This document shows, piece by piece, positions 15,061-36,426 of a stretch of 38,677 bases of DNA. Source of the stretch: Ruminiclostridium sp. (GTDB lineage Bacteria; Bacillota; Clostridia; DSM-8532); NCBI GenBank assembly GCA_012523055.1, contig JAAYJG010000168.1:1-38677 (forward strand). The letters run 5' to 3'. The notes below the pieces were generated by a model, which saw only the letters and a list, made by a program, of their open reading frames with translations, did not search any database and was not told the origin of the DNA. Position 1 is the stretch's first letter, and every line of letters starts with the position of its first letter. The position numbers were made by a program, and so were the translations under genes.

Positions 15061-15115
15061 TCCTCAAAGCTTCGGGAAGATTGCAAGGATGCAAAGTACA
15101 TAGGACATTGCACCC

Positions 15116-16084: not shown

Positions 16085-16381
16085 ATTCTCACCTCCGTCT
16101 ATAGGGTATTTTTGTTTTATTGTTGCACCGCGCTCCCGGTCAGGTTCCTGCCCTGCGGCCTTGCGTGACCAGCACAGCGTTTTCATCCCATTGGCACGCT
16201 CGCTTACATTTGCAAGGTCTTGGCATGCTTCTCCTGAGAGTATTCACTCCAGGTGCAGCTATTCAATTTTCAAATCTTTCTTTTGTCCTGATTTCATTTT
16301 CACAAATGCTGTGTTAAAATAATACAGATAATACAAATAATTTATTTTTGATAAAATCCATTATTTGCAGAGGAGGGCATA

Positions 16382-17467: not shown

Positions 17468-17786
17468 TCTCAATATTCACTTGACTTTTTCCCCAATCAG
17501 AGCTGTATTAGTACTACGGGAGTTTCCTGGACGAAAAAACGTCATAGCAGACTGGTGTGCTTACGACACACCAGCCCTGCGAAAGGTGAAGAGACCACCC
17601 CGCGCAACCGTAAACGGCACTATGACGTGATTATTTTATCATTCTTCATGGTGTTCCACAATCTAAAGTTTCGGCGTATGCAAGGGGTATTGGCGGTGAT
17701 GCTGCCCGCCTTTGCGTACGCTTTTTTTGCAAGGGCATACCTTGCCCTTGGGAACCTTCCGACTAAATTTGAAAGGTCGGGAGAAC

Positions 17787-18458: not shown

Positions 18459-18487
18459 AAATGGTATAACAGGGTGATAAATGTGAA

Positions 18488-18535
18488 CACAGCGGCCTGC
18501 AGAAGATTCCGGCAGGCCGCTGTGTTTTTTCTTTT
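18488..18535. terminator. strong terminator hairpin between convergent genes
   Basis: Perfect 13-bp stem CACAGCGGCCTGC / GCAGGCCGCTGTG (18488-18500 / 18512-18524), followed by TTTTTTCTTTT on the plus strand. Confidence 0.85.
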
Positions 18536-18540
18536 CTGTG

Positions 18541-19251: not shown

Positions 19252-19303
19252 AAAGACCATCTCCTTTCAGCAACAGACAATATCACAGCTTTTCGGAGAT
19301 AGC

Positions 19304-19662: not shown

Positions 19663-19683
19663 GCGTAAAGAGTGGAGATACAG

Positions 19684-22375: not shown

Positions 22376-22444
22376 AACTCGCAACACGTTGCGAGAAATT
22401 GAAAAATGCAGACTATGTCTGCACAATTTGAGGAGGTGCTGAGG

Positions 22445-23350
22445 ATGGCACTTTTTACCGAAAGCCACGGGATGAGAACTCCGGTTGAACGCACTTCGAC
22501 TATAACGGTCGAGATGTATTATTTACTTTTGGATTGTTGCAAAAAATATTATAAACACTTAACACATCTTTTTCCGCAACAATGTCATGATGATTTTACG
22601 GCAAAGGACTATTTGGCTTTTGGCGAAAAGCAGTTCCAAAATCGTCTTAAAGTGAAAATACCAACACTATTTCGTGATGAATATGGCAGAATCAGTTCAC
22701 CAGCGGATGGCGATGAATACGACCAATATGCATTGTTGGATTTAATAGAGTTTATAGCTCAAAATATGAAAGATATTTCAGAAGGCTGGAATAATCAGCG
22801 TTATCAAAATTACTGGAATATTGAATGTTTGAATACAGCAAACGTGTTTGACGATTACCAGCACGAAATTAATGAAATTTTTGTGGAGTCCGGATTATTG
22901 TTTACGTTAACATCTGCAAAAGTAGTTGAGCGGGTTCTTGAACATAGCACCCTAACGCCCGGAGTGGAAACTGCCGTTCAGTCCGTTAAGGAAAAAGGGC
23001 TAAAAGACTTACTGGAAGAAGCGGTTGCTCTCTTTAAGCAGCCCGACCCAGCGTTTCGAAATGATGCAGTTGAAAAGCTTTGGGATGCATTCGAGCGTTT
23101 GAAGACCTACTATACCACACTGGATAAGAAAGGGTCGGCGGCGAAAATCGTTACAGATATGAGCGGCGGACAGACGGAGTTCTCCAAACTGTTTGACGAT
23201 GAGTTCAAGGCGTTGACAACTATAGGCAATGGCTTCAGGATTCGCCATCATGAAACCGATAAAATCGATATAACAGACAGCAGACACTTCGACTATATAT
23301 TCAACCGCTGTATGTCGTTGATTGCCTCTGCACTTCAATATCTTAACTGA
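22445..23350 (+). CDS. hypothetical protein, AbiJ-NTD4/HEPN-like (tentative), nested in the hsd operon
   Basis: ATG 22445 follows GAGGAGG, whereas the track start 22406 has no RBS. The C-terminal third, DAVEKLWDAFERLKT...ALTTIGNGFRIRHHETDK...HFDYIFNRC, recalls AbiJ-type abortive-infection proteins. This is recognition by eye only. Confidence 0.45.
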   Translation: MALFTESHGMRTPVERTSTITVEMYYLLLDCCKKYYKHLTHLFPQQCHDDFTAKDYLAFGEKQFQNRLKVKIPTLFRDEYGRISSPADGDEYDQYALLDLIEFIAQNMKDISEGWNNQRYQNYWNIECLNTANVFDDYQHEINEIFVESGLLFTLTSAKVVERVLEHSTLTPGVETAVQSVKEKGLKDLLEEAVALFKQPDPAFRNDAVEKLWDAFERLKTYYTTLDKKGSAAKIVTDMSGGQTEFSKLFDDEFKALTTIGNGFRIRHHETDKIDITDSRHFDYIFNRCMSLIASALQYLN

Positions 23351-23363
23351 GGGAGGAACACTT

Positions 23364-24377
23364 ATGGGGGACAGCTTAATCCCGAACAACGCAAGTACTT
23401 TTGATGAGGTCATTGCCATCATTGACAATGCCCGCGAGAGTGCATTCCGTGCCGTTAATCGGGAACTTATCAATATGTACTGGGACATCGGTGAGTATGT
23501 GAGCCACCGTGTTACCAATGGCGGTTGGGGCAAGTCTGTTGTCAAGGAGTTTTCTGACTTTATACAGAGCCGCTATGTCGGTATAAAAGGCTTTTCCTCG
23601 TCAAACATTTGGCGAATGAAACAGTTTTATGAAACGTATCGCGGCAACGAAAAACTCGCAACACTGTTGCGAGAATTGACGTGGTCGCACAATCTTCAAA
23701 TAATGTCGTGCAAAACGGATGAGGAGCGGGAGTTTTATCTCACCCTATCGGTCAGGAACCGCTACTCTTTCCGTGAGTTGAAGCGGCAGATGGATAGCGG
23801 GTTGTATGAGCGAACTATGATGTCGGAAATCACCAACAAGCTGATAACCGAACGCAGCGAGGGTCTGACCGCTTTGCGTGACAGCTATATCCTTGAATTT
23901 TTGGACTTACCCGAAAGCCATAAGGAAAAAGACCTACGGAAAGCCATCGTTTTTAATCTGAAGGACTTCATCCTGGAGTTCGGCAAGGACTTCACTTTTG
24001 TCGGCGAGGAATACCGTGTTCAGGTAGGTAACCGCGACTTTTTTATTGATCTTCTGTTCTATAATCGCGAGCTTCACTGCCTTGTGGCGATAGAACTGAA
24101 AATCGGAGAGTTCGAGCCAGAACACCTCGGCAAGATGGAGTTCTACCTCGAGGCTCTTGACCGCGACATCAAAAAATCCGATGAAAATCCTAGCGTAGGG
24201 CTTATCCTCTGTACCAAGAAGGATGCAACGGTGGTCGAGTATGCACTCAGCCGCAGTATGTCGCCCGCCATGATTGCGGATTATAAACTGCACTTGCCGG
24301 ATAGGCACATTTTGGAAAATAAACTGCGTGAGTTGACGGAGCTTGCCGAAAGCACTGCTGATGAAGACGATGAATAA
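23364..24377 (+). CDS. PD-(D/E)xK nuclease family protein (DUF1016 / YhcG-like)
   Basis: ATG 23364 follows GAGGGAGG. It has the N-terminal pattern ARESAFRAVNRELINMYWDIGEYV, then LSWSHN-like TWSHNLQI, and the PD-(D/E)xK core FIDLLFYN...CLVAIELKIGEF. Confidence 0.85.
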   Translation: MGDSLIPNNASTFDEVIAIIDNARESAFRAVNRELINMYWDIGEYVSHRVTNGGWGKSVVKEFSDFIQSRYVGIKGFSSSNIWRMKQFYETYRGNEKLATLLRELTWSHNLQIMSCKTDEEREFYLTLSVRNRYSFRELKRQMDSGLYERTMMSEITNKLITERSEGLTALRDSYILEFLDLPESHKEKDLRKAIVFNLKDFILEFGKDFTFVGEEYRVQVGNRDFFIDLLFYNRELHCLVAIELKIGEFEPEHLGKMEFYLEALDRDIKKSDENPSVGLILCTKKDATVVEYALSRSMSPAMIADYKLHLPDRHILENKLRELTELAESTADEDDE

Positions 24378-24389
24378 AGGGGGATCGCC

Positions 24390-27300
24390 GTGGAATTGAA
24401 TTTTACAAGAGGAATGTTTACCGAAGCCGAACTTGAGGCGGCTATCATCGATTTATACCAAAAGCAGGACTACGATTATGTCCTCGGCGAGACAATTCAT
24501 CGTGGGTTTGAGGAGATACTGCTTAAGGAAGACCTGCGTTCCTATCTCTATGCCCATTATCCCGATCTTACGGTGGCTGAAACAGAAAAGGTCATAAGCC
24601 GTATCGAGAATATTCCCTCTGCGCCGCTGTATCAAGGCAATCGCGAGACCTTCCTTCTGACAAACGAAGGCTTTGATTTACAGCGCGACGATACCGCAAA
24701 ACTTGCCGTGCACATCAATTACATAGACTTTGACGAGCCTAAAAAGAACATTTTTAAGGTGGTCAACCAGTATTCGGTGCAGGGCGAGCGTCTGCGCAGA
24801 CCGGACTTGATTCTGTTCATCAACGGCATTCCCGTAGCGATTTTCGAGTTTAAGTCCGCCGTCAAGGAGAACACAACTATTCACGACGCCTGGGAGCAGA
24901 TAACCATCCGTTACTGTCGCGATATTCCCAAGCTGATGAAATATTGTTTTCTTTCTGTTATCAGCGATGGAGCCAACACCCGAATGGGCAGTATCTTTAC
25001 GCCATATGAATATTACTACGCATGGAACAAGATTAATGACGAAAAAAAAGTCAGCAACGGCATCACCGCCCTTCTCACTTTGATTAAGGGCGCATTTGAC
25101 AAAGACCGCGTTGTCGAAATCCTTCGTGACTTTGTCTACTACCCGGATGACAGCACTAAAGAAACGGCTATCGTCGCCCGCTATCCGCAGTTCTTTGCAG
25201 CACGGAAGATGTTTGAGAATATTAAAAAGCACATGAGACCCGAGGGTGACGGCAAGGGCGGTACATACTTCGGCGCAACCGGCTGTGGCAAAACCTATAC
25301 GATGCTGTTTCTCTCTCGTTTGCTCGCCTTACGCGACAGGGACGCCTTTGAAAACCCGACGATGGTCATCATCACCGACCGCGAGGATTTAGACAGGCAG
25401 ACCTCGGAACTGTTTGTATCTTCCAAACGCTATCTGCACGACAACAATGTGCGGAGCATTGAGAGTCGACACGACTTGCAGAAGGTATTAGGTGTCGAAA
25501 CATCTGACCTCCCGAAAGTGGCCGAGGAGCCCACATATTACAGCGTGACCGGTGCAGAAAGCGGGGGCGTGTTCCTGACAACAATTCAGAAGTTCTGCGA
25601 ATCGACGGGCTTGCTATCTAACCGCTCCAACATTATCTGTATTTCTGATGAAGCACATCGGACACAAACAGGCGTTGGCTCGAAGCTGAAAAAGACTGAC
25701 AAGGGCGTGTTCACTACATACGGCTTTGCCAAGTATCTCCGTGACAGCTTCCCGCGAGCGATCTACTGCGGGTTCACCGGGACGCCAATTGACGAAACAA
25801 TTGCCGTGTTCGGTGATATCGTGGACAGCTACACAATGATAGAATCAAGCGATGACGGCATCACCGTCCGCATAGCTTACGAGCCGCGCCTGGCGAGGGT
25901 TATCCTCTCAGATGAACAGGCACGGGAAATACAGAAATATTACGATAAATGCACCGAGGAAGGCTCCAATCCTGAACAGGTTGAGGAGAGCAAGCGCGCA
26001 ATGAGTGAGATGAAGCGCGTTCTCGGTCATCCTGAGCGCATGAAGAAATTGGCTATGGACATTGTTACCCATTATGAGGCGTTGACCGCGCAGAAGCCTG
26101 AAATTGTACAGAAGGCGATGATTGTATGCGCCGACAGGACGCTTGCTTATCGTTTGCTGAAAGAAATAATAGCGCTACGCCCTGATTGGAACAAACCGCG
26201 CAGATCCGAAAACGATGCCGCTCTATCAAAGTCGCAGTTGGAGAAACTTATGCCGCTTGAGAAAATCAAGCTCGTGGCGACTCAAGGTGACAACGACGAA
26301 AAGGAGCTTTACGACCTCTGCGGCACAAAGGACTACCGGCAGATGCTCGACAGGCAGTTTAAGAATAACAACTCTAACTTCAAGATTGCCATCGTAGTCG
26401 ATATGTGGATTACGGGTTTTGACGTACCGTCCCTGGCGGTTATGTACATAGACAAGCCATTGCAGAAACATACGTTGATTCAGACAATTTCCCGTGTTAA
26501 CCGTGTTTTTGATGGCAAAGATATGGGCTTGGTGGTGGACTACATAGGCATCAAGCAGGATATGCTCGAAGCCCTAAAGAAATACAGCAGCCCGCAGGAA
26601 AGTCCTGTTGATGAAATTTCGGTTGCACTGGCAGTTTTCCGCAATCATCTGGCTCTGCTTGATGAACTGCTTCACGACTTCGACGCTACAAAATTCTACT
26701 CCGGTGAACCGTTGGAGCGTCTACTCTGCTTGGACGCCGCCGCAGAATATGTGCAGATTAGCAAAGAGATGGAAAGCCGCTTTATGAGCCTCTCCCGCAA
26801 AATGAAAGCGGCGTATGACATTTGCTTCCCGTCTGGAGAATTGACTGAAACGGAAACAGCAAAGGCTCAGTTCTACCTTGCCATCCGATCTATCATTTAT
26901 AAGCAGACAAAAGGCGATGCACCCGACGCCGAAGTGATGAACCGCGTTGTCGAGAAGATGGTACAGGACGCTATCACTTGCACGGGCATTGAAAACATCG
27001 TCAACGCAGGCAAGCCGGAAGACCTGTTCAGTGAAGAGTTTATGAAACAGCTGGACGAAGTCAATCTGCCGATTTCTAAGTTTAACGCCCTCTTGAAGCT
27101 GCTCCGCAAAGCGGTATCCGGTTACGGCAATGTCAATAAGGTTAAAGCGATTGAGTTTGACAAGCGGCTGAAGGCCGTTGTTGACAACTATAACAACCGC
27201 GACAAGCTGGTATTCACGAGTGAAGTCGTTGCCGATTTTATCAACGGGCTATCGGAGGAGTTGATAAAAATTTTCTCCGACCTCCAGACTGACAGGACCT

Positions 27301-27605
27301 CTTTCGAAGCACTGGGCATTACCTATGAAGAAAAGGCGTTTTATGACATTCTCGTCAAAGTACGAGACGATCACGGTTTCCCATATGCCGATGAGAAGTG
27401 CCTTATGCTTGCGAAAGAAATAAAAATACTGGTGGACGACAAAGCGCAGTTCGCCGACTGGTCTACCCGCGCTGACATTAAAAACCAGTTAAATATGGAT
27501 TTGACCGTGCTGCTCTATAAAAACGGTTACCCGCCCGAATGGGACGAGGAAGTGTTTGAGAAGGTTCTGGAACAGGCGGAGAATTTTAAGAAGTACGCTG
27601 ATTAA
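24390..27605 (+). CDS. hsdR: type I restriction endonuclease subunit R
   Basis: A GTG start follows AAGGGGG. It has an N-terminal PD-(D/E)xK (RPDLILFINGIPVAIFEFKS), SF2 motor motif I GATGCGKTYTM, DEAH (ISDEAHRTQ) and the C-terminal helical domain typical of HsdR. Confidence 0.95.
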   Translation: MELNFTRGMFTEAELEAAIIDLYQKQDYDYVLGETIHRGFEEILLKEDLRSYLYAHYPDLTVAETEKVISRIENIPSAPLYQGNRETFLLTNEGFDLQRDDTAKLAVHINYIDFDEPKKNIFKVVNQYSVQGERLRRPDLILFINGIPVAIFEFKSAVKENTTIHDAWEQITIRYCRDIPKLMKYCFLSVISDGANTRMGSIFTPYEYYYAWNKINDEKKVSNGITALLTLIKGAFDKDRVVEILRDFVYYPDDSTKETAIVARYPQFFAARKMFENIKKHMRPEGDGKGGTYFGATGCGKTYTMLFLSRLLALRDRDAFENPTMVIITDREDLDRQTSELFVSSKRYLHDNNVRSIESRHDLQKVLGVETSDLPKVAEEPTYYSVTGAESGGVFLTTIQKFCESTGLLSNRSNIICISDEAHRTQTGVGSKLKKTDKGVFTTYGFAKYLRDSFPRAIYCGFTGTPIDETIAVFGDIVDSYTMIESSDDGITVRIAYEPRLARVILSDEQAREIQKYYDKCTEEGSNPEQVEESKRAMSEMKRVLGHPERMKKLAMDIVTHYEALTAQKPEIVQKAMIVCADRTLAYRLLKEIIALRPDWNKPRRSENDAALSKSQLEKLMPLEKIKLVATQGDNDEKELYDLCGTKDYRQMLDRQFKNNNSNFKIAIVVDMWITGFDVPSLAVMYIDKPLQKHTLIQTISRVNRVFDGKDMGLVVDYIGIKQDMLEALKKYSSPQESPVDEISVALAVFRNHLALLDELLHDFDATKFYSGEPLERLLCLDAAAEYVQISKEMESRFMSLSRKMKAAYDICFPSGELTETETAKAQFYLAIRSIIYKQTKGDAPDAEVMNRVVEKMVQDAITCTGIENIVNAGKPEDLFSEEFMKQLDEVNLPISKFNALLKLLRKAVSGYGNVNKVKAIEFDKRLKAVVDNYNNRDKLVFTSEVVADFINGLSEELIKIFSDLQTDRTSFEALGITYEEKAFYDILVKVRDDHGFPYADEKCLMLAKEIKILVDDKAQFADWSTRADIKNQLNMDLTVLLYKNGYPPEWDEEVFEKVLEQAENFKKYAD

Positions 27606-27620
27606 TTTTGAGATTGGTAT

Positions 27621-27647
27621 ACTTTTTAGGGGTGATGATGAGATATG
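27621..27647 (+). repeat. direct repeat copy 1 (ACTTTTTAGGGGTGATGATGAGATATG)
   Basis: It is identical, apart from one extra T, to 30291-30316. It contains an RBS-like AGGGGTGA and an ATG. Here that ATG opens only a 15-codon uORF (27645-27692). Confidence 0.9.
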
Positions 27648-27678
27648 AGTTGTAACAGGAACGATAGGGGGTGTGTGC

Positions 27679-30279
27679 ATGGCGAAGTTTGATTTTGGCT
27701 CCGAGATTCTGTGTGTAGACTTTCATCTACATACACGGCGTGATAAGGAATTTGCGTACGCTGGTGAAGAAAACAGCTTCGTCGGAGACTTTGTCGATGC
27801 GTTAAAGCAAAAAGGAGTCAGCGTCGGCGTGATTACGAATCACAACAAGTTCGATTCCGGCGAATACAAAGCCCTTCGTAAAAAGGCAAAGCAGGGTGAT
27901 ATATTCCTCTTGCCCGGCGTGGAGCTTTCCATCAAGGAAGGAAGTAATGGGCTGCATACGCTCATCGTGTTCAATCCCGATGAATGGATCAACAACGGTG
28001 ATGACTCTATCAACAGCTTTATCACTGCCGCCTTTCAAGGTATCCCGAATCATGAAAACGCCAACACCCGTTGCTTATACGACGTTCGCACAGCGCTTGA
28101 AACACTGGAGCGTTATGGCAAGGACTACTTCGTTGTATTCGCCCATGTAGAACAGGACAATGGGCTTATCAAAGAATGCGGCGGCGGCTTAATTCAATCA
28201 CTCGCTCAAATTGAGTTATTCCAGGAGCGCGTGCTAGGCGTTCAAAAACTCCGCACACTCGACAATATCCCGAAGTTGCAACAGTGGCTTGGTTACGACA
28301 TAGCTCGTGTCGAAGGATCTGACCCTAAGCGGATTGAGGATATCGGCAAGGACTGCTGCCAGACATACATAAAACTGGGCGAATATTCGTTTGATGCATT
28401 GAAGTACGCCCTTATCGACCATGAAAATAGGGTGTTTGACAACTGCGAGCACCTACGGCACAGCTACATAGAGTCCATCAGCTTCACGGGCGGCAAGCTC
28501 AATGACGTCGTGCTGAACTTGTCGCCCCAGCTTAATACTCTGATCGGGATTCGGGGAAGTGGAAAATCTTCAATTCTTGAAGTTTTGCGCTGGGTACTGG
28601 GTATAGACGCTTCGGCAGACAAACAGTACAAAAACAGACTTGTCGAATTTGTTTTGGGATCGGGCGGCAAAGCTGCTGTGCGCGCCGTTGACCAGCACGG
28701 TCGAAAATATGATATTTCAAAGATTAACGGTGACCGCGCATATATTACCGACGCGGCTGCTGGCGGCGATGTTACCGCTTCAGTTGGCTCACTGATCAAA
28801 AATCCCCTATATTTCGGCCAGAAAGATTTGGCGCGTTCAGACACGGAAGAAAACTACGAGAAGAAGTTGCTGGACAAGCTACTCGGCGGTAGAATCCCTG
28901 CCGCCGACTTGGGACAAGTGGAAACCCAGCTTACGGAAGCCATAAAGAACCTACTGGATGTCACGCAGATTCCTGAAAAAATCAAGGAGCTTGAGCTACA
29001 GAACGCTGACCTTGACCACAAGCTCAAAATTTTCGTGGATAAGGGCATCACTCAGAAGTTAGAGAAACAGACTGAATTCGGCGCAGATAAAGCCAAGCTC
29101 GAAGGCGCAATCGGAATTATCCAAGCTATCCATACAAGGTTGGTTGCATTTACACAATCAGCCGCACTCGAGGATGCCTTACTTGCCTCGTATACCTCGA
29201 AATATAACCCAGAATTGTTCACAAGGGCGCAAGCTGTCATCGAACGCATTGCCGAAATTCTCCAGAAGATTTCCGACCTCTCAACAGCGTTGAGTACTGA
29301 AAAAGACGCGCTCATTGGGATACAAACAGAGCTGACACAGCTTATCGAAGGGCTAAAAGACGAGTTTTCCCAAATCCAGCGTGAAATCAATGACGACACC
29401 CTTGACCTCAAGGGTTATCTGAAATACACGCAAGATAGAGCAAAAAATGTTGTGGAAATCGAACGGTTCAAACGCGAAGCGACGTCGACAGATGCAATCA
29501 AAACACGAATCCTCGGTCTCGCCCGCCAGCGCAACGAAGCTCTGATGGCAGTTTTCCGCGCATACGAAGCGGAAATCAACAGGTTGAACGAAAGGCAAGA
29601 TGCCTTGGCAATAAGTATCACTTTCAAAGGCAATACCGAAGCCCTATTACAGTTGGTTAGGAGAACATTCCAAGGGACAGCTATCCGTAGCGCAGAAACC
29701 AAGTCTGAGCAGATATGTGCTGCGCTGCCAGATGGCGTTGCCGTCCTGATGGATATTCTCCTTGATAACGGTAATAAGTTAACAAAAATCCTTGTGGATG
29801 CAGAGTACACGAAGTTCATAGAAAAAGTGCTGAGTGACTACGCATCATTCATCAGATGTTGGAGTGGAGACCGTATCGATATTCTTTACCATAGCAAGCC
29901 TCTGCGCGAGCATTCTCTTGGACAGCGAGCGTCCGCTTTGGCACTGACCATCCTCACTCAAGACGACAGTGACATCATTATCATAGATCAGCCGGAAGAC
30001 GATCTGGACAATCAGGTGGTTTACCGAGAATTCATCAAGACAGTGAAAGCCAAGAAGCCGAGCGTCCAGTTTATCTTTGCCACGCACAACCCTAACATTC
30101 CTGTTCTCGGTGATGCGGAGCGAGTAATTGCGACGTTATATACCGAACAATCAATTACGCCAACCGTGGGCAACATCGACAATGCCGAATCTCACAAACT
30201 CATTGTTGACATTATGGAGGGCGGACAGGAAGCATTCAAACGTAGGAATGATATCTATAAAGCTTGGCACAAACAGTAG
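27679..30279 (+). CDS. PHP-phosphoesterase domain fused to SMC/RecF-class ABC ATPase with coiled-coil insertion (candidate single-gene defence protein)
   Basis: ATG 27679 follows AGGGGG. The PHP ligand pattern is DFHLHT, ITNHN, GVELS, GLHTL and FAHVE. Walker A is GIRGSGKSS. A heptad-rich segment of about 250 aa follows. Then come LGQRASALAL, Walker B IIIIDQPEDDLD and ATHNPNIP. Confidence 0.8.
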   Translation: MAKFDFGSEILCVDFHLHTRRDKEFAYAGEENSFVGDFVDALKQKGVSVGVITNHNKFDSGEYKALRKKAKQGDIFLLPGVELSIKEGSNGLHTLIVFNPDEWINNGDDSINSFITAAFQGIPNHENANTRCLYDVRTALETLERYGKDYFVVFAHVEQDNGLIKECGGGLIQSLAQIELFQERVLGVQKLRTLDNIPKLQQWLGYDIARVEGSDPKRIEDIGKDCCQTYIKLGEYSFDALKYALIDHENRVFDNCEHLRHSYIESISFTGGKLNDVVLNLSPQLNTLIGIRGSGKSSILEVLRWVLGIDASADKQYKNRLVEFVLGSGGKAAVRAVDQHGRKYDISKINGDRAYITDAAAGGDVTASVGSLIKNPLYFGQKDLARSDTEENYEKKLLDKLLGGRIPAADLGQVETQLTEAIKNLLDVTQIPEKIKELELQNADLDHKLKIFVDKGITQKLEKQTEFGADKAKLEGAIGIIQAIHTRLVAFTQSAALEDALLASYTSKYNPELFTRAQAVIERIAEILQKISDLSTALSTEKDALIGIQTELTQLIEGLKDEFSQIQREINDDTLDLKGYLKYTQDRAKNVVEIERFKREATSTDAIKTRILGLARQRNEALMAVFRAYEAEINRLNERQDALAISITFKGNTEALLQLVRRTFQGTAIRSAETKSEQICAALPDGVAVLMDILLDNGNKLTKILVDAEYTKFIEKVLSDYASFIRCWSGDRIDILYHSKPLREHSLGQRASALALTILTQDDSDIIIIDQPEDDLDNQVVYREFIKTVKAKKPSVQFIFATHNPNIPVLGDAERVIATLYTEQSITPTVGNIDNAESHKLIVDIMEGGQEAFKRRNDIYKAWHKQ

Positions 30280-30290
30280 AAAATGACATA

Positions 30291-30316
30291 ACTTTTAGGG
30301 GTGATGATGAGATATG
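30291..30316 (+). repeat. direct repeat copy 2 (ACTTTTAGGGGTGATGATGAGATATG)
   Basis: See copy 1. Here the terminal ATG is the start codon of the KAP NTPase gene. Confidence 0.9.
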
Positions 30317-32212
30317 TGGAACGACGTAGAAACAACGCAAGATTTTCTTAACTTTTCCGTAATTGCAAAAACAGTTGCTGAGTTGATTTCTGAATCAGGT
30401 GGACAACCTATCTCCATAGGCGTTTCAGGCAGTTGGGGAGCAGGAAAATCGTCTATGGTAAAAATGATTGGTGAAGCGCTTAAGCTCAAAGACGATGGTA
30501 AGGAAGACAAAGAAAAAAACTATGTTTTCTTAGAGTTTAATGCTTGGCTTTATCAAGGCTATGATGATGCTAGAGCAGCCTTATTACAGGCTGTTTCAGA
30601 TAAGCTCCTTGAAGAAAGTAAAAAGCGTTGTAATCCAGCAAATGATCTCACCAATAAGGTGAAGGGCTTTATTAAGCGGATCAACTGGCTTCAAGTGGCA
30701 AAGCTTGTTGTTCCATTATCGTTGGGACTGATTCCGGGTGGTGTTGCCGTCGGAGGACTAGCTTCCCTGATAGGTGCTGTTTCCAACCTTGCTCAAAATA
30801 AAGACACAGAAGCGCAGACCGAAAAAAGCGAAGCGGTTAGTGAGGCATTTGATGCCCTCGGACCTGAAATGAAGGAACTGCTGAAAGATAATGCGTCAAA
30901 ATCTACCCCTCAGCAGATAGAGAAACTCAGAGCCGATTTTGCTGATCTTCTTAAAGAATTGAACATCACATTGGTCATCTTGGTGGATGATTTAGACCGT
31001 TGTTTACCTTCAACGGCCATCTCCACCCTTGAAGCAATGCGACTTCTCCTTTTTGTTGAGAGGACAGCGTTCATTATCGCCGCAGATGAGCAAATGATTC
31101 GCAACAGTGTAAGAGCGCATTTTGCAAATGTTGAGTTGTCAGAAGGACTTGTGACAAGCTATTTTGACAAGTTAATTCAAATTCCCCTGTCTGTTCCACA
31201 TTTAGGCGTTGCAGAAGTCAAGATATACTTGGTGATGTTGTTTGCAGAACTATCACAAAGAAAAGGTGAGATAAATAAAGATATTTGGGAGAAGGCCAAG
31301 GCGGATTTATTATCCCTGTTATCCAGTGCTTGGCAGGGCGGCATACCCAAAGCGAAGATTGAAAAGGTTTTCGATGATTCTTCCGCGGAAAAGGTACGGA
31401 AATACATAGATTTAGCAGAGCAGCTTGCCGGGATTATGGTTACCGCAGACCATATAAATGGGAATCCTCGCCTCATCAAGCGGTTCTTGAATAATTTGAT
31501 AATAAGAGAAAAAGTAGCTCGCCTAAATGGTATGACAATTGACTTCGGAGGACTTGTCAAGATGCAACTGTTTGAGCGCTGTGCTTCTCCTGCGGCGTTT
31601 GAAGACCTCGTGAAAAAATCGGTCGAATCACAAGACGGAAAATTAATTTTTCTTCAGGAAATAGAAGCGAAAGTAGCCAGCGGAGAGGATTATGACACGG
31701 AAGATTCAAACTGGAAGTCACCATTTATTAAAGAATGGCTAAAACTTGAACCGAAGCTTGGCGATGCTGATATCAGACCTTTGCTGTATTTGAGTCGAGA
31801 CAGGTCTTTATCACTGGCTGCATATGATGAGCTCTCAAAAGAAGCGATTGAAATTTTATCTGCCTTGGCTGCTGTAGATAAAGACATAATCAAAGCTCTT
31901 GTGGATAAAATCAAAGAAATTGGTGAAATGGAAGCCGAAAGGTTGTTAGTCAGACTCGGGCGAATAGGTAGCGGCAGTCAATGGGAAAAGAAAACTCTTA
32001 TTGCTACATTGCATATCACCGAAGCTTATCCCAACTTAGGTAGTAGGCTTGTTAATTTACTAGATACTATCCCGGCGAAGACACGGAAAGTAGCTTTTAT
32101 TCCGCTACTGCTTGATAAACCGTGGGCATCGGAAATGTTGACCAGATGGAACAACGATATTAATACACCTCAGGTAGTAAAAAACGCCATAAATGCGAAA
32201 GGAGGAAAATAA
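30314..32212 (+). CDS. KAP family P-loop NTPase (QatA-like)
   Basis: Walker A is GVSGSWGAGKSS. It has the KAP hallmark FLEFNAWLYQGYDD, a hydrophobic insertion inside the NTPase domain (VAKLVVPLSLGLIPGGVAVGGLASLIGAV) and Walker B LVILVDDLDRCLP. Confidence 0.85.
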   Translation: MWNDVETTQDFLNFSVIAKTVAELISESGGQPISIGVSGSWGAGKSSMVKMIGEALKLKDDGKEDKEKNYVFLEFNAWLYQGYDDARAALLQAVSDKLLEESKKRCNPANDLTNKVKGFIKRINWLQVAKLVVPLSLGLIPGGVAVGGLASLIGAVSNLAQNKDTEAQTEKSEAVSEAFDALGPEMKELLKDNASKSTPQQIEKLRADFADLLKELNITLVILVDDLDRCLPSTAISTLEAMRLLLFVERTAFIIAADEQMIRNSVRAHFANVELSEGLVTSYFDKLIQIPLSVPHLGVAEVKIYLVMLFAELSQRKGEINKDIWEKAKADLLSLLSSAWQGGIPKAKIEKVFDDSSAEKVRKYIDLAEQLAGIMVTADHINGNPRLIKRFLNNLIIREKVARLNGMTIDFGGLVKMQLFERCASPAAFEDLVKKSVESQDGKLIFLQEIEAKVASGEDYDTEDSNWKSPFIKEWLKLEPKLGDADIRPLLYLSRDRSLSLAAYDELSKEAIEILSALAAVDKDIIKALVDKIKEIGEMEAERLLVRLGRIGSGSQWEKKTLIATLHITEAYPNLGSRLVNLLDTIPAKTRKVAFIPLLLDKPWASEMLTRWNNDINTPQVVKNAINAKGGK

Positions 32213-32216
32213 ATCT

Positions 32217-33029
32217 ATGGGAACATCTGCATCACATAACGGGCCAAAGTCTGGCGTTTCATTTGACCCCCCGTGGTTAGATGATATTGATAATCCAGAT
32301 GTACCTGCAGACCCTACGCAAAATCCTCAGCCAGCACCTGTATTGCCGCCACTTGCACCCCCTGCACGATTTAAGAGTGCACGCCGCAGCATGGGCGATT
32401 ACATAAGGAGCGGTAGCCGAGAGTCTTTGGCAAAATCCCTTGGACATTATTCGCGTACTGGTATGGGAGGCGCACGAAATGTAGCGAACCATATGCGCCA
32501 TTCCGCGAGTATTGCATCAAAACTGTATTCCTCATTTAGCTCACTTCGAGAGGGTAATGAACCTACAATAAGCAGTATTATCAGTAATTACAGGGCAGCA
32601 AATGCTGATATATATGGGCTGATTGACGCAATTGCAGAGTATATTTGCGCAGACGGAGGAAGTTTAGATGAAACATCTCCAAAAGATTCTGTTTCTTCGG
32701 CATTAAGCGACCTGTTTGACAAAAGTCCTGATGTTGATATTACTAATCTTTCAGATGATAGTGTCTGGTCATTAGTTTCATCGTTCCTCGGTTACGAAGC
32801 TTTCAGCAGAGTTCAACTTTACATCGGTCAAGGGTTTGAAACAAATGATGTTTCTCTTACCGACCGCATAACGAGACTTAACGATATGCGCGAGTATTTG
32901 GAGTCTGAGATTAGTTCTCAGATAGGAGTTATCCGTAATGAAATAGGAGACAAGCCGCCGTCAGACCTGCAAAAAGTTATGATGACTGCAATAGAAAGGA
33001 CTTTCAAAGTATTCGAGGTGACAGTATGA
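32217..33029 (+). CDS. hypothetical protein (QatB-position), Gly2 N-terminus and Pro-rich linker
   Basis: ATG 32217 has AAAGGAGG 8 nt upstream and lies 4 nt after the KAP gene stop. The product starts MGTSASHNGPKSG..., then a Pro-rich tract NPQPAPVLPPLAPPARF and a helical C-terminal domain. Its stop overlaps the next start (ATGA). Confidence 0.7.
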   Translation: MGTSASHNGPKSGVSFDPPWLDDIDNPDVPADPTQNPQPAPVLPPLAPPARFKSARRSMGDYIRSGSRESLAKSLGHYSRTGMGGARNVANHMRHSASIASKLYSSFSSLREGNEPTISSIISNYRAANADIYGLIDAIAEYICADGGSLDETSPKDSVSSALSDLFDKSPDVDITNLSDDSVWSLVSSFLGYEAFSRVQLYIGQGFETNDVSLTDRITRLNDMREYLESEISSQIGVIRNEIGDKPPSDLQKVMMTAIERTFKVFEVTV

Positions 33030-34291
33030 AAAAAATAATATGTTATCCGCACTCCTCGGTTCCAACTCATTTTGACGATGATATTGACTACTTTGAACTA
33101 TTTTCGCACTCAAATGTCTCTCGTTCGAATATCAGCTCATTAGGGCTTTCACTACCTCGCGAGCTAAGAAGGTATCGTATTGTACCTCCCATTTCGGCGA
33201 TTGATTTTGCTGCATTTGCAATTTCCATCGTCGCTGCTGACAAGTTAGTTTCGAGATCTGACAGCCCAGATGGATGGACAAGAATGATAGACTTAACTAT
33301 ATTTCTGTCCGAACCAGAAAAATGGAAGCCAATAAAAATAACAATTGAGAAAATGCTTAAATTTCTCACAGGGGATTTTTGGACGCTGTCTTTCCAATTA
33401 GCAGAAGCACCAGCGATTCAGCCCAGATATGAACCGCTTAAACGCGAGAATGATTGTGTTTGCCTTCTTTCAGGGGGCGTGGACAGCTTGGCTGGCGCAA
33501 TAGACTTGTTATCTGAAAAGCGAAGTCCTTTGTTTGTGTCACAGATTATCACAGGGGATGGAGAACGACAGCGTAATTTTGCTAACCGTTTTGGTGAGCA
33601 TAACCACTGCCAATGGAGTATTGGAAAACTCAGAGGAACAGAGGGATCAACTCGTGCTCGTTCCATTGCATTTTTCGCTTTTGCTCTCTTGGCGTCTTCC
33701 GCAATTTCGACATCAGGCAATATTGCAGAAATTGTTGTGCCAGAAAACGGGTTTATCAGCTTGAATGTGCCATTAGATTCTAATCGAATTGGGAGCTTAA
33801 GCACAAAGACTACACATCCTGTTTATATGACATTGCTTCAAGAAATTTGGGATGCACTTGGGATAAATGCAAAACTTATTTTGCCTTATAAATTTAAGAC
33901 TAAGGGTGAGGTTCTTAAGGAATGTAAAGATAGGCAACTGTTAGAAGAATTGGTTTTTGCATCGAATAGTTGTGGTAAATTTAGGCGTCATGGACTGAGG
34001 CATTGCGGAGTATGCGTGCCTTGTCTTGTGAGAAGAGCGGCCTTTTTAGAAGCAGGACTTCAAGACACCACGGAAAAGGGCTATCGATATGAGGACATCA
34101 GTAAGTCCAACTCAAAGGATTTGGCTGCCGTTGCATTAGCCGCTAAACAGGTTGAGCTTTCAGGTATAAATAGATTTATTAAGGGGAACTTGTCTTTTGC
34201 CAATCCTGATGACAGAAATTCTTATTTAGAAGTGGTTTTGCGCGGTATCAATGAACTTGAAAATCTAATGAGAGGCTATAAAATATTATGA
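33026..34291 (+). CDS. QueC-like PP-loop ATPase with about 145-aa N-terminal extension (QatC-like)
   Basis: The PP-loop CLLSGGVDSLAG lies at about aa 147-158. A C-terminal Cys cluster, SCGKFRRHGLRHCGVCVPCLVRRAAF, resembles the QueC zinc site. ATGA overlaps link it to both neighbours. Confidence 0.8.
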   Translation: MKKIICYPHSSVPTHFDDDIDYFELFSHSNVSRSNISSLGLSLPRELRRYRIVPPISAIDFAAFAISIVAADKLVSRSDSPDGWTRMIDLTIFLSEPEKWKPIKITIEKMLKFLTGDFWTLSFQLAEAPAIQPRYEPLKRENDCVCLLSGGVDSLAGAIDLLSEKRSPLFVSQIITGDGERQRNFANRFGEHNHCQWSIGKLRGTEGSTRARSIAFFAFALLASSAISTSGNIAEIVVPENGFISLNVPLDSNRIGSLSTKTTHPVYMTLLQEIWDALGINAKLILPYKFKTKGEVLKECKDRQLLEELVFASNSCGKFRRHGLRHCGVCVPCLVRRAAFLEAGLQDTTEKGYRYEDISKSNSKDLAAVALAAKQVELSGINRFIKGNLSFANPDDRNSYLEVVLRGINELENLMRGYKIL

Positions 34292-35019
34292 TAGACCTGC
34301 ACTGCCACCTTGATTTATATAAAGACCCGCTTTCATTACTCCCCGAAGTCAAAAGACGTTGTAAATATGTGCTTGCAGTTACCACCAGTCCACGCGCTTG
34401 GCAAAAGACAAAGCAAGTATTTGCAGGAATTGACTGCGTTCAGGTAGCACTTGGTCTGCACCCAGAAGTCCTTTTATCAAAAATGAATGAAATTGATATG
34501 TTGTTGTCAAACATCAGCCACTGCAAATATATTGGCGAGGTTGGAATAGATGGGTCGGATCAATACAAGTCGTCTTATCATGCACAAAAGGATTTTTTCA
34601 GGGAAGTTGCTCGAGCTACTGAAAATAACGGTGGTAAAATAATAAGCATACATTCAAGAAATGCAGTGAAAGATGTTCTGGATATTATCGAAAGTGATAT
34701 CGTGACCAGCAAACCAGTTTTGCACTGGTTCTCCGGAACTATCGAAGAACTTGAACGAGCAGTTTCTTTGGGTTGCTGGTTTAGCGTTAATCCTGCAATG
34801 CTCACTGGGAAAAAGGGTAGAAGTCTCGTTTCAAAAATGCCGCTTTCAAAAATACTGCCCGAGACTGATGCTCCATTTACAGAAAAACGGGGAATTCCTT
34901 ATAAGCCTTGGGAAGCCATTGAAATAGTCGATACACTTAAAGTTATTTTCGGTGTCGAAACTGAGACATTAAGGAATAAAATGTTTTCAAACCTTGAAGC
35001 GCTAATAGGTCAAAGTTAA
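34288..35019 (+). CDS. TatD family metal-dependent hydrolase/DNase (QatD-like)
   Basis: TatD metal-ligand pattern: MIDLHCHLD, GEVGIDG, ISIHSR, LHWFSG and PETDAPF. Confidence 0.85.
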   Translation: MIDLHCHLDLYKDPLSLLPEVKRRCKYVLAVTTSPRAWQKTKQVFAGIDCVQVALGLHPEVLLSKMNEIDMLLSNISHCKYIGEVGIDGSDQYKSSYHAQKDFFREVARATENNGGKIISIHSRNAVKDVLDIIESDIVTSKPVLHWFSGTIEELERAVSLGCWFSVNPAMLTGKKGRSLVSKMPLSKILPETDAPFTEKRGIPYKPWEAIEIVDTLKVIFGVETETLRNKMFSNLEALIGQS

Positions 35020-35038
35020 CTTTAGACAATTACAAAAG

Positions 35039-35075
35039 CGGCAACTATCGAATGATAGTGCCGCTCTTGCATTTC
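35039..35075. terminator. terminator hairpin after the TatD-like gene
   Basis: 12-bp stem with one bulged A (35039-35051 / 35056-35067) and loop GAAT. CTTGCATTT follows on the plus strand. On the minus strand TTTTGTAATT follows, so it may act in both directions. Confidence 0.5.
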
Positions 35076-35089
35076 CGTATCGGTTTGGG

Positions 35090-35115
35090 GTATGGTTCAA
35101 TAAGTTTCCCTATTA
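35090..35115. repeat. candidate attR (GGGTAT core plus outer arm GGTTCAATAAGTTTCCCTAT)
   Basis: This is the inverted partner of 11341-11360 (16 of 20 positions). It lies 89 nt from the stop of the HisJ-type gene. Confidence 0.45.
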
Positions 35116-35203
35116 AACCGCGCCTTTTGGCTTCCCTTTTTGATTAATGGGCGTTCCATTTATTTCTATAACCGCTCTGCCAGTATACAGTAAGTTCGCT
35201 GAC

Positions 35204-36031
35204 TTACAATGGCACATCCTGCCATATATTGTCTAAGAGAATTCTTTGATGGGTGTAGCCAAGGGATTTCAACTTTTCGACAGCCTGGAGATAATATGCG
35301 TCGATCTTATCGGGGTGGTGCGCATCAGAATTTAGTACCAGGGGAATGTTTCGTTCCCGCATACAGGCTAAAATCCAATCAGACGGGTACATTTCAGAGG
35401 TATACCCCCGGGCAATCCCTCCGGTGTTTACCTCGACAATAACTTGTTGCTCCGTAATCGCGTCCAGGACTCCTTCAACAGCCTTTCGGTACCAGCTTTC
35501 GCTTTCGTTAAAGAAACGATTGCCACTATTGTTTTTTTTCAGAATGTCCAGGTGTCCCAGAATAGAGGGGGCCTGCTGATAGAGCATATCAGTCAGAAGC
35601 TGATAATACTTCTCAACCAGTTCCCGTGCCTCACCGTGAAAAACTACATCTCTGGTTTCCTGGAACTCCTCCGGGGTGCCATCCAAAGCCATATACCTTT
35701 GCCCTGCGGCGTGATAAATGAAATGCACAGAACCTATGGTGTAATCAAGGCCTGGATAACCGCGGTAATCCACTACGCCGGGGTAAAAGTCGGTTTCAAG
35801 GCCAACATAGACCTGTATCTGACCACGGTACTTTTCTTTCAGACCAAGAACCGTCTGCATGTATTGCTTAAGTTTGCCAGGTTTCATTGTCCAGCAGGTT
35901 TCAAAATGAACAGGCGCATGGCTTGAAATCCCGATAGCGGGAAATTTTTTGCGGATGGCGGAAAGAATATAGTCCTCCGGTGCCATACTCCCATCACAAA
36001 AATGGCTGTGGGTATGATATGTTGTAAACAT
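35204..36031 (-). CDS. hisJ: histidinol-phosphatase, PHP family (HisJ/HisK type)
   Basis: 275-aa ORF with GGAGA upstream. It has the N-terminal motif YHTHSHFCDGS, plus SSHAP, GLETD, GSVH and NSDAHHP, typical of HisJ-family PHP phosphatases. Confidence 0.8.
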   Translation of the reverse strand: MFTTYHTHSHFCDGSMAPEDYILSAIRKKFPAIGISSHAPVHFETCWTMKPGKLKQYMQTVLGLKEKYRGQIQVYVGLETDFYPGVVDYRGYPGLDYTIGSVHFIYHAAGQRYMALDGTPEEFQETRDVVFHGEARELVEKYYQLLTDMLYQQAPSILGHLDILKKNNSGNRFFNESESWYRKAVEGVLDAITEQQVIVEVNTGGIARGYTSEMYPSDWILACMRERNIPLVLNSDAHHPDKIDAYYLQAVEKLKSLGYTHQRILLDNIWQDVPL

Positions 36032-36099
36032 GATTTCTCCTGATAAAGTTATTTTTGGGTGATGTTTGTTTCTGCGTGTTTGTTAGATGTTGGGTTCTT

Positions 36100-36426
36100 T
36101 CACGGGGCTCACCAGAGAACCTGTCTGTGGCGGTTATGAAAGTAGGATCCTTATGGTCAATTCTATACCAGTGAACCCAGAGCCGTCTGTTGACTACCGG
36201 TCGTCGGATGAACTTACCGAGGAATCTGTCCCTAGTGACTAATTACACCAGGGGACTCGTCCACAGTGGTTAGGTCGTTTGGATGAACTTACCGAGGAAC
36301 CTGTCCCTGCTGCTCATGTCCCTGCTGCTCAAAGAAATCTGTCCATACTATCTCATGACCAAGGGACCTGGGCCCCGCCCCCTGGCTCATAATTTACACA
36401 GGAACCTGGGCCCCGCCCGGTGTAAA
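36100..36426 (-). repeat. degenerate tandem hairpin-repeat array, copy 2 (inverted relative to copy 1)
   Basis: On the minus strand it starts at, and overlaps, the TAA of the acyl-CoA synthetase gene. It has the same unit core (GGGACAGGTTCCTCGGT). It contains a 28-nt internal repeat GGATGAACTTACCGAGGAA(T/C)CTGTCCCT at 36206-36233 and 36281-36308. Confidence 0.85.

What the first reader, a model, noticed from the sequence alone, without database searches (positions are those of the whole stretch)
30314..35019. KAP NTPase / small Gly2 protein / QueC-like / TatD operon (Qat-type architecture) with ATGA-coupled genes
Four co-oriented genes are separated by a 4-nt gap and then two ATGA start/stop overlaps (33026-33029 and 34288-34291). 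The first is a KAP NTPase with a hydrophobic insertion in its P-loop domain. The second is a 270-aa protein of unknown fold that begins MGTSAS and carries a Pro-rich linker. The third is a QueC-like PP-loop enzyme (SGGVDS, QueC-type Cys cluster) with an extra N-terminal domain of about 145 aa. The fourth is a TatD-type hydrolase. This matches the QatABCD defence architecture described by Gao et al. 2020, whose mechanism remains poorly understood. A 7-deazaguanine biosynthesis-type enzyme sits here with no other queuosine or archaeosine pathway genes, so it probably has a non-canonical chemistry. One hypothesis is nucleobase-type modification of a partner protein. The Gly2 N-terminus of the small protein makes it a plausible acceptor, but this is inference only. 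This block also looks clearly more AT-rich by eye than the neighbouring R-M genes, which suggests separate acquisition.
Basis: partly seen in the sequence, partly recalled or inferred. Interest (0 to 1): 0.7.

Follow-up and report, generated by a model that had tools for sequence, protein, structure and literature searches.

The report
Ordinary QatABCD anti-phage defence operon

Summary
The four genes are qatA (30314-32212), qatB (32217-33029), qatC (33026-34291) and qatD (34288-35019). They hit the PADLOC Qat models at E = 2e-124, 1e-25, 4e-98 and 2e-81. QatB, QatC and QatD pass NCBIfam's curated equivalog cut-offs. QatB, QatC and QatD also match solved Qat structures, and all published functional residues are conserved.

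Three 2026 Nature Communications papers propose exactly this, and one reports an NDG-modified QatB N-terminal peptide.

The lower G+C content is real: 0.419, against at least 0.448 for every other window of the same length. Homology to relatives in unrelated contexts stops at the operon borders, so qat behaves as a mobile cassette.

The only unexpected item is next door. The trlF ATPase gene sits between two copies of the qatA leader, about 27 nt each. A close relative has hsdR directly followed by qatA.

Novelty: already known. Interest: low.

The parts
30314..32212 (+). qatA: KAP-family P-loop NTPase, 632 aa
   Evidence: PADLOC QatA 2.2e-124. Pfam KAP_NTPase 2.3e-57. NCBIfam QatA 438 bits, below the curated 600-bit cut-off. 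AlphaFold2 model has mean pLDDT 76.6.
30428..30451 (+). QatA Walker A, GSWGAGKS, residues 39-46
   Evidence: Motif search. G39, G42, G44, K45 and S46 are invariant in 40 homologues.
30695..30793 (+). QatA Gly-rich hydrophobic insertion between Walker A and Walker B, residues about 128-160
   Evidence: Maximum 19-residue Kyte-Doolittle hydropathy 1.90. A comparable stretch is present in 7 of 8 orthologues. P134, G142 and G147 are invariant. pLDDT is below 50 in the model.
30974..30991 (+). QatA Walker B, VILVDD, residues 221-226
   Evidence: Motif search. L223, V224, D225 and D226 are invariant.
32200..32205 (+). Shine-Dalgarno AGGAGG for qatB, inside the 3' end of qatA
   Evidence: Read directly from the sequence.
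32217..33029 (+). qatB: 270-aa substrate/partner protein of QatC
   Evidence: PADLOC QatB 1.3e-25. NCBIfam QatB 109 bits, above the 100-bit cut-off. PDB 9vll_A 5.6e-16 and 9zee_A 2e-11, both aligned from residue 1.
32217..32426 (+). QatB N-terminal MGTS motif and Pro-rich, presumably disordered tail (residues 1-70), including P18 and W20
   Evidence: 111 of 115 full-length homologues start MGTS, and G2, T3, G9, P18, W20 and L21 are invariant. P18 and W20 align to P. aeruginosa P16 and W18. Deleting residues 16-22, which include those two positions, abolished defence.
33026..34291 (+). qatC: QueC-family PP-loop enzyme with N- and C-terminal extensions, 421 aa
   Evidence: PADLOC QatC 4.4e-98. 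NCBIfam QatC 332.9 bits, above the 280-bit cut-off. PDB 9zee_B 3.8e-58 and 9vlk_A 1.8e-55.
33470..33487 (+). QatC PP-loop SGGVDS, residues 149-154
   Evidence: Motif search. Aligns to P. aeruginosa S156-S161.
33803..33811 (+). QatC T260-K261-T262. These are the QatC-specific threonines that replace the Tyr/Asp CDG-recognition pair of QueC and Cap9.
   Evidence: STKTTH at 259-264 aligns to P. aeruginosa S277-H282, which contains T278 and T280.
33971..34024 (+). QatC Zn-binding cysteines C316, C327, C330 and C333
   Evidence: They align to P. aeruginosa C334, C354, C357 and C360.
34288..35019 (+). qatD: TatD-family metal-dependent nuclease, 243 aa
   Evidence: PADLOC QatD 1.9e-81. NCBIfam QatD 284 bits, above the 230-bit cut-off. 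PDB 3gg7_A 1.4e-57 and A. baumannii QatD 9xsn_A 1.4e-55. H5, H7, H58, E84, D88, H122, H146, E192 and D194 align to AbQatD H8, H10, H60, E86, D90, H124, H148, E194 and D196.
35033..35069 (+). Stable hairpin just after qatD, a probable operon terminator with a weak U tract
   Evidence: RNA fold of 35020-35090: -22.3 kcal/mol, z = -3.46 against shuffles.

Best explanation
This is an intact QatABCD anti-phage defence operon. It is carried as a discrete four-gene cassette in a defence island. The island also holds a type I R-M system, the candidate defence genes PDC-S32 and PDC-S02, and a TrlF/Ppl-like ATPase. It probably belongs to an integrated element in a bacterium from an anaerobic digester, whose closest Qat relatives are mostly Clostridia-class.

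The most likely mechanism is taken from characterised homologues.
(1) QatB is translated from the ATG at 32217 and loses Met1, which exposes the alpha-amine of Gly2.
(2) QatC binds QatB 1:1, and the Pro-rich disordered QatB tail threads Gly2 into the QatC PP-loop active site.
(3) QatC uses ATP to adenylate a carboxylate. This is most probably 7-carboxy-7-deazaguanine (CDG) supplied by the host's own queuosine pathway. [quoted passage not shown]
(4) The modified QatBC core is the immune unit. QatD, a TatD-type 3'-5' exonuclease and AP endonuclease tethered through the QatB N-terminal region, and QatA, an oligomeric DNA-binding KAP ATPase, broaden or execute restriction of phage DNA.

What is shown here: family membership and conservation of every published functional residue. 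What is shown in homologues: the QatBC complex, Gly2 in the active site, the requirement for G2, the PP-loop and the T/T pair, and QatD nuclease activity. What is inferred: the identity of the adduct in vivo, the trigger, and what modified QatB does.
For: Profile hits to all four Qat families. Matches to solved QatB, QatC and QatD structures. Conserved SGGVDS, T260/T262 and the four Zn cysteines in QatC. MGTS, P18 and W20 in QatB, invariant in 112 homologues that start with MG. All nine AbQatD active-site residues in QatD. A-B-C-D order and tight coupling conserved from Firmicutes to Ralstonia and Acidovorax. Published biochemistry and genetics of homologues.
Against: No experiment exists on this locus. 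QatA scores below NCBIfam's curated cut-off (438 against 600 bits). The QatC reaction could not be reconstituted in vitro by two groups. Intact-mass analysis did not show NDG on QatB, and only one LC-MS/MS peptide supports it. The T/T replacement of the CDG-binding Tyr/Asp pair may mean a different substrate. Whether QatA and QatD are required differs between the E. coli and P. aeruginosa systems. Whether the host makes CDG cannot be seen in a 38.7-kb window.
Confidence: 0.95

Rival explanations
1. The system is Qat, but QatC attaches something other than 7-carboxy-7-deazaguanine to Gly2 of QatB. This would be a different ATP-activated carboxylate and therefore a distinct protein modification.
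For: QatC here keeps the family-specific T260/T262 in place of the Tyr/Asp pair that reads the 7-deazaguanine base in QueC and Cap9. CDG, ATP and QatB did not react in vitro in two laboratories, and CDG did not bind in crystals. Canonical QueC motifs are absent from the QatC cluster.
Against: An NDG-modified GTSKAY N-terminal peptide of QatB was identified by LC-MS/MS with fragmentation. Nothing in this window speaks to the question either way.
Confidence: 0.2
2. The QueC-like gene is a metabolic or nucleic-acid 7-deazaguanine enzyme (preQ0 synthesis for queuosine, or Dpd-type DNA modification), and its neighbours are unrelated.
For: Weak Pfam QueC hit (17.9 bits) over the Zn-finger region, plus a PP-loop motif.
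Against: The hit is below Pfam's cut-off, whereas the protein is above NCBIfam's QatC equivalog cut-off. The CDG-recognition pair is replaced. No queD, queE, folE, tgt or dpdA gene and no preQ1 riboswitch is in the window. The four genes move together as one unit into unrelated contexts. E. coli QatC does not restore Q in a queC deletion strain.
Confidence: 0.01
3. It is a type IV CBASS-like module in which the QueC-like protein acts as Cap9.
For: It shares the QueC-family fold and an N-terminal Gly acceptor motif: MGTS here, MGGS in CD-NTases.
Against: No CD-NTase and no TGT-like Cap10 is present in the window. No CBASS model hit any of the four proteins. [quoted passage not shown]
Confidence: 0.01
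4. It is an inactive remnant: the genes are intact as ORFs but the system no longer functions.
For: A relative (L005) shows that Qat loci can decay by internal deletion. There is no convincing promoter of its own in the 34-nt gap after trlF.
Against: All four ORFs are full length, with every catalytic and interface motif checked intact. An identical cassette was recovered from two independent sequencing runs. Translational coupling is preserved.
Confidence: 0.04

Closest known systems
QatABCD of Pseudomonas aeruginosa (QatBC structures 9zee/9zef; Gao, Wassarman and Kranzusch 2026, PMC13279940)
   Same: Same four genes in the same order. QatC matches 9zee_B at 3.8e-58 and QatB matches 9zee_A at 2e-11. 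SGGxDS, the T-x-T pair, the four Zn cysteines, the roughly 145-aa N-terminal extension, and the MGTS, Pro and Trp tail motifs are all conserved.
   Different: The sequence is diverged: the phmmer alignment to the P. aeruginosa QatC stops at query residue 350, so the C-terminal extension that binds QatB was not aligned. The QatB tail is Pro-rich and of similar length. The nearest relatives of this cassette are in Firmicute-type bacteria rather than Proteobacteria.
QatABCD of E. coli NCTC9009 (QatBC structures 9vlk/9vll; PMC13376578, PMC13639016; original system of Gao et al. 2020)
   Same: QatC matches 9vlk_A at 1.8e-55 over residues 51-417. QatB matches 9vll_A at 5.6e-16 from residue 1. The N-terminal sequence MGTS(A/K) is the one on which NDG was detected.
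   Different: The interface residues named for E. coli QatC (R412, K414, F415) fall in a gapped, poorly aligned stretch and are not conserved as such. This is expected if QatB and QatC co-evolve, and it was not tested.
Acinetobacter baumannii QatD (9xsn; PMC13434339)
   Same: Matches at 1.4e-55. All nine mutated or metal-binding residues are conserved, including the HxH motif that marks it as a type II TatD.
   Different: None detected at the sequence level.
Type IV CBASS Cap9-CdnD deazaguanylation (bioRxiv 10.1101/2025.04.06.647259)
   Same: Works like it: a QueC-family enzyme acts on the Met-cleaved Gly2 amine of a partner protein held in a complex.
   Different: Not a member. There is no CD-NTase and no Cap10. 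QatC is about 20 kDa larger. The CDG-reading Tyr/Asp pair is replaced by Thr/Thr. The substrate protein QatB has an unrelated all-helical fold.
RADAR RdrA ring ATPase (8hra, 8hr8, 8fnu)
   Same: These are the best Foldseek PDB matches of the QatA model (E 4e-3 to 3e-2, probability 0.94-1.00). RdrA forms heptameric rings, and P. aeruginosa QatA was reported as a heptamer or octamer by mass photometry.
   Different: The match is weak (TM-score normalised to the query 0.23-0.28, none at E <= 0.001). There is no sequence match to any PDB chain. This is a lead only.

Membership tests
QatABCD anti-phage system | QatA: KAP-family P-loop NTPase encoded first in the operon | tested here: met
   PADLOC QatA 2.2e-124 over 1-560. 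Pfam KAP_NTPase 2.3e-57. Walker A and Walker B intact. Caveat: NCBIfam QatA equivalog 438 bits, below the 600-bit cut-off.
QatABCD anti-phage system | QatB: helical protein of about 270 aa with a disordered N-terminal tail starting MGTS | tested here: met
   PADLOC QatB 1.3e-25. NCBIfam 109 bits, above 100. PDB QatB chains matched from residue 1. MGTS in 111 of 115 full-length homologues.
QatABCD anti-phage system | QatC: QueC-family PP-loop enzyme with SGGxDS, a Zn cysteine cluster, Thr/Thr in place of Tyr/Asp, and N- and C-terminal extensions | tested here: met
   NCBIfam QatC 332.9 bits, above 280. PDB QatC 3.8e-58. S149-S154, T260/T262 and C316/C327/C330/C333. The PP-loop starts at residue 149, and about 70 residues follow the Zn cluster.
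QatABCD anti-phage system | QatD: TatD-family nuclease with an HxH motif | tested here: met
   NCBIfam QatD 284 bits, above 230. 9xsn_A 1.4e-55 with all nine active-site residues conserved.
QatABCD anti-phage system | Four genes co-oriented and contiguous in the order A-B-C-D | tested here: met
   The same order and coupling are found in L004, L006-L010, L014 and L016.
QatABCD anti-phage system | QatB and QatC form a 1:1 complex with Gly2 in the QatC active site | not testable with these tools
   Only single-chain structure prediction is available. Inferred from homologues.
QatABCD anti-phage system | Protects against phage infection | not testable with these tools
   Needs plaque assays. Shown for the E. 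coli, P. aeruginosa and A. baumannii systems.
Canonical QueC (preQ0 synthase, PF06508) | Scores above the Pfam gathering threshold over the whole domain | tested here: not met
   17.9 bits against a 22-bit cut-off, covering only profile positions 153-209.
Canonical QueC (preQ0 synthase, PF06508) | Tyr/Asp CDG-recognition pair and the other QueC catalytic motifs | tested here: not met
   The pair is replaced by T260/T262 according to the alignment to P. aeruginosa QatC. The QatC cluster lacks the YxQxHxxE, VPxRN and YPDC motifs according to PMC13329287.
Canonical QueC (preQ0 synthase, PF06508) | Genomic association with queD, queE, folE or tgt, or with a preQ1 riboswitch | tested here: not met
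   None in the 38.7-kb window.
Type IV CBASS (Cap9/Cap10) | Adjacent CD-NTase and TGT-like Cap10 | tested here: not met
   No such domains in any ORF scanned. No CBASS model hit the four proteins.

The most novel reading that the evidence does not exclude
The physiological adduct that QatC places on Gly2 of QatB may not be 7-deazaguanine. It could be another ATP-activated carboxylate, which would fit the invariant Thr/Thr pair (T260/T262 here) replacing the nucleobase-reading Tyr/Asp pair. That would make Qat a second, chemically distinct N-terminal protein modification system. This is an open question for the whole family. This locus neither favours nor excludes it and offers no special handle on it.
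Probability: 0.2. Interest if true: 0.55.

Novelty: already known. Interest (0 to 1): 0.12.

Why it matters
The finding matters little beyond annotation. It adds one more intact Qat operon, from an anaerobic-digester bacterium, to a family with thousands of members; 4486 QatA-like proteins scored E <= 1e-10.

It is a useful positive control for the scan. A reader working from raw sequence recovered a real defence system and independently reached the mechanism that structural work has since proposed.

The Firmicute-type clade has about 120 close QatB relatives with an invariant tail bearing MGTS, G9, P18, W20 and L21. [quoted passage not shown]

Tried and rejected
- A PDB sequence search with QatA gave no hit.
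- A Foldseek search of the QatA model gave only weak RdrA matches, none at E <= 0.001. I keep this as a lead, not a finding.
- The promoter and terminator consensus scan of 27400-36400 was not informative. Promoter-like sites numbered 20 against 13.9 +/- 3.4 expected, and none lay in the 34-nt gap before qatA. The scan missed the hairpin after qatD, which folding did find.
- ARAGORN found no tRNA genes and Rfam found no family above gathering score in the window.
- A repeat search of 10900-35300 for att-like repeats bounding the putative integrated element found nothing convincing at the element ends. It did find the trlF-flanking duplication.
- A viral-contig scan with QatC found no relative.
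- A literature search for TrlF returned nothing relevant to defence.
- I considered and rejected the 32193 ATG as the qatB start, canonical QueC, and CBASS Cap9 (see rival explanations).
- Complex prediction for QatB and QatC could not be run, because the tool handles single chains only.

Full report
**Observation**

The window carries four co-oriented ORFs at 30314-32212 (632 aa), 32217-33029 (270 aa), 33026-34291 (421 aa) and 34288-35019 (243 aa). The first two are separated by 4 nt. The next two junctions are ATGA stop/start overlaps at 33026-33029 and 34288-34291.

- Gene 1 is a KAP P-loop NTPase (Pfam 2.3e-57). Walker A is at residues 39-46 and Walker B at 221-226. A Gly-rich hydrophobic stretch lies between them at about 128-160.
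- Gene 2 begins MGTSAS and has a tail with 18.6% proline.
- Gene 3 has SGGVDS at 149-154 and a cysteine cluster at C316, C327, C330 and C333. About 145 residues lie ahead of the PP-loop core.
- Gene 4 is a TatD hydrolase (Pfam 1.6e-45) with HCH at residues 5-7.
- The block is more AT-rich than its surroundings. G+C is 0.419, against at least 0.448 for all 513 other windows of equal length. GC3 is 0.34-0.385, against 0.54-0.60 for hsdM, hsdR and trlF.

**Start of gene 2**

A longer ORF opens at the ATG at 32193, but the MGTS start at 32217 is the real one, for three reasons.

- AGGAGG lies at 32200-32205.
- 111 of 115 full-length homologues begin MGTS, and the three annotated with extensions contain MGTS internally.
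- In the relative L006 an in-frame stop sits immediately upstream of the MGTS start. An independent gene call on the source contig also gives 270 aa.

**Identity**

All four products hit the Qat models of PADLOC: QatA 2.2e-124, QatB 1.3e-25, QatC 4.4e-98 and QatD 1.9e-81. In NCBIfam, QatB, QatC and QatD pass the curated equivalog cut-offs at 109/100, 332.9/280 and 284/230 bits. QatA scores 438 bits against a cut-off of 600, so it is a diverged QatA.

Against solved structures the matches are as follows.

- QatC matches the P. aeruginosa QatC (9zee_B) at 3.8e-58 and the E. coli QatC (9vlk_A) at 1.8e-55.
- QatB matches 9vll_A at 5.6e-16 and 9zee_A at 2e-11, both from residue 1.
- QatD matches 3gg7_A at 1.4e-57 and the A. 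baumannii QatD (9xsn_A) at 1.4e-55.
- QatA has no solved relative by sequence.

**Functional residues**

The alignments let me place the published residues on the window proteins.

- QatC S149, D153 and S154 correspond to P. aeruginosa S156, D160 and S161.
- QatC T260 and T262 correspond to P. aeruginosa T278 and T280. This is the invariant QatC-specific pair that replaces the Tyr/Asp pair reading 7-carboxy-7-deazaguanine in QueC and Cap9.
- QatC C316, C327, C330 and C333 correspond to the four Zn ligands.
- QatB G2, P18 and W20 correspond to P. aeruginosa G2, P16 and W18. All three are invariant in the 112 homologues that start with MG.
- QatD H5, H7, H58, E84, D88, H122, H146, E192 and D194 correspond to all nine residues examined in AbQatD.

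**What is already known**

The Qat literature has moved well beyond Gao et al. 2020.

- The type IV CBASS study established deazaguanylation. The QueC-like Cap9 conjugates 7-amido-7-deazaguanine (NDG) to Gly2 of a CD-NTase.
- Three 2026 papers solved QatBC structures. QatB and QatC form a 1:1 complex. The Met-cleaved Gly2 of QatB lies in the QatC active site. G2D, PP-loop and T/T mutants lose defence. MGTS is highly conserved.
- One group found an NDG-modified GTSKAY peptide by LC-MS/MS, although intact-mass analysis was negative. Neither that group nor the Kranzusch group could reconstitute the reaction in vitro.
- E. coli QatC does not complement a queC deletion.
- QatD is a Mg-dependent 3'-5' exonuclease and a Ca-dependent AP endonuclease, and it is inhibited by NTPs.
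- P. aeruginosa QatA binds DNA and forms a heptamer or octamer.

Its proposed refutation tests have been run on homologues, with the outcome it predicted.

**Mechanism for this locus**

I take it to work as its homologues do.

- QatB loses Met1. Removal of Met before Gly by methionine aminopeptidase is established knowledge.
- The Pro-rich tail delivers the Gly2 amine into QatC.
- QatC adenylates a carboxylate, probably host-made CDG, and forms an amide on Gly2.
- The modified QatBC core acts together with QatD and QatA against phage DNA.

Membership and residue conservation are shown here. Complex formation, the essential residues and the nuclease activity are shown only in homologues. The adduct in vivo, the trigger and the downstream step are inferred, and they remain open in the field.

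**QatA**

I built a 40-sequence alignment and an AlphaFold2 model with mean pLDDT 76.6 and pTM 0.60. The hydrophobic insertion at 130-158 is modelled with pLDDT below 50. It contains the invariant residues P134, G142 and G147, and a comparable stretch is present in 7 of 8 orthologues.

Transmembrane segments inserted in the NTPase domain are a known trait of the KAP family. That statement rests on my own knowledge of the original family description by Aravind and colleagues (2004), not on a tool result.

The best PDB fold matches are the heptameric RdrA rings of the RADAR system. They are weak: E 4e-3 and TM-score 0.28 normalised to the query. I record this only as a lead. It is consistent with the reported QatA oligomer.

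**Context and the separate-acquisition claim**

The left part of the window holds core genes: rsfS, leuS and a URO-D family gene. A large serine recombinase follows at 11389-13125 on the minus strand, then element-type genes (AAA_25, DUF6076, DUF6550).

The defence genes come next.

- Type I hsdM and hsdS at 19672-22375.
- PDC-S32 (AbiJ_NTD4) at 22406-23350 and PDC-S02 (YhcG nuclease) at 23322-24377, both inserted ahead of hsdR.
- hsdR at 24390-27605.
- A TrlF-family PHP plus ABC ATPase at 27673-30279, with NCBIfam 485 bits against a 350-bit cut-off and a Ppl-like PADLOC hit.
- The qat operon.

Beyond a hairpin at 35033-35069 lie convergent genes that look like core genome. The identical cassette occurs in anaerobic-digester metagenome assemblies.

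Nucleotide homology to qat loci in unrelated contexts is confined to window positions from 30290 or 30313 to about 34992. This holds for L004 (a Negativicutes MAG, 83%), L006 (Hungatella, 76%) and L016 (a different element carrying ArdA and serine recombinases, 86%). Together with the composition, this supports qat as a mobile four-gene cassette.

The acquisition is not recent in this lineage, however. L014 (GCA_023435305.1) shares the DUF6550-hsdM region at 82% identity and both the hsdR and qat segments at 87.6%.

**Unexpected neighbour feature**

The qatA leader with its ATG, AACTTTTAGGGGTGATGATGAGATATG at 30290-30316, is duplicated at 27621-27647, just after hsdR. 24 nt are identical, and identity ends exactly after the ATG.

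In L014, hsdR is followed after 39 nt by qatA, with a single copy of this leader. That copy aligns to both window copies. So trlF with its own leader (27648-30289) is an insertion relative to L014, flanked by a direct duplication of about 27 nt. Integration of a circular trlF cassette by recombination at the leader sequence is one possibility. Loss of trlF from L014 by recombination between the repeats cannot be excluded.

**Verdict**

Novelty is 'already known' and interest is low. The most novel reading still open is that the QatC adduct is not a 7-deazaguanine. That is a question for the whole family, and this window gives no particular leverage on it.

Noticed in passing
window 27621-27647 and 30290-30316 (flanking trlF, 27673-30279): The qatA leader plus its ATG is duplicated right after hsdR, with 24 nt identical (TTTTAGGGGTGATGATGAGATATG). 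The close relative L014 has hsdR followed by 39 nt and then qatA, with one copy that aligns to both window copies. So trlF with its own leader (27648-30289) looks like a cassette insertion flanked by a direct repeat of about 27 nt. The duplicated ATG at 27645 opens a 15-codon ORF that overlaps the trlF start.
   Followed up: partly
window 27673-30279: A TrlF-family PHP-domain plus ABC/SMC-like ATPase. NCBIfam NF045780 scores 485 bits against a 350-bit cut-off, and PADLOC Ppl scores 4.4e-33. It is probably a separate single-gene defence module. It is not linked to qat in any other locus examined.
   Followed up: partly
window 19672-27605: A type I R-M operon with two extra genes between hsdS and hsdR. 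One is PDC-S32 (AbiJ_NTD4, 22406-23350, 6e-139). The other is PDC-S02 (YhcG/DUF1016 PDDEXK nuclease, 23322-24377, 3.5e-126). In relative L014 the same slot holds a RhuM-family gene instead, so this is a cargo-exchange hotspot inside an R-M operon.
   Followed up: partly
window 11389-19260: A large serine recombinase with DUF4368 (11389-13125, minus strand) lies next to the core genes leuS and URO-D. It is followed by AAA_25, DUF6076 and DUF6550 genes. The defence island probably rides on an integrated element running from about 11.2 to 35.1 kb. No bounding att repeats were found.
   Followed up: partly
L005 4442-5019 (Bacillota UBA8346, DNPP01000199.1): This looks like a decayed Qat locus. QatA codons 1-104 abut QatB codons 182-270 in a different frame, which amounts to a deletion of about 2.1 kb relative to the window (30625-32759). 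qatC and qatD are intact. It could also be an assembly artefact.
   Followed up: no
L014 12760-17298: In the relative element a 1512-aa NOV_C-domain protein is inserted between qatD and the shared downstream sequence (window 35064-35127 matches L014 17348-17411). This is another cargo difference on the same backbone.
   Followed up: no
window 3175-5472: A 765-aa UvrD-like helicase with weak GajB-like and DRT-helicase-like PADLOC hits (1e-18 to 1e-14). It lies in the apparently core left part of the window, beside a SAM-dependent methyltransferase gene at 5487-6353.
   Followed up: no
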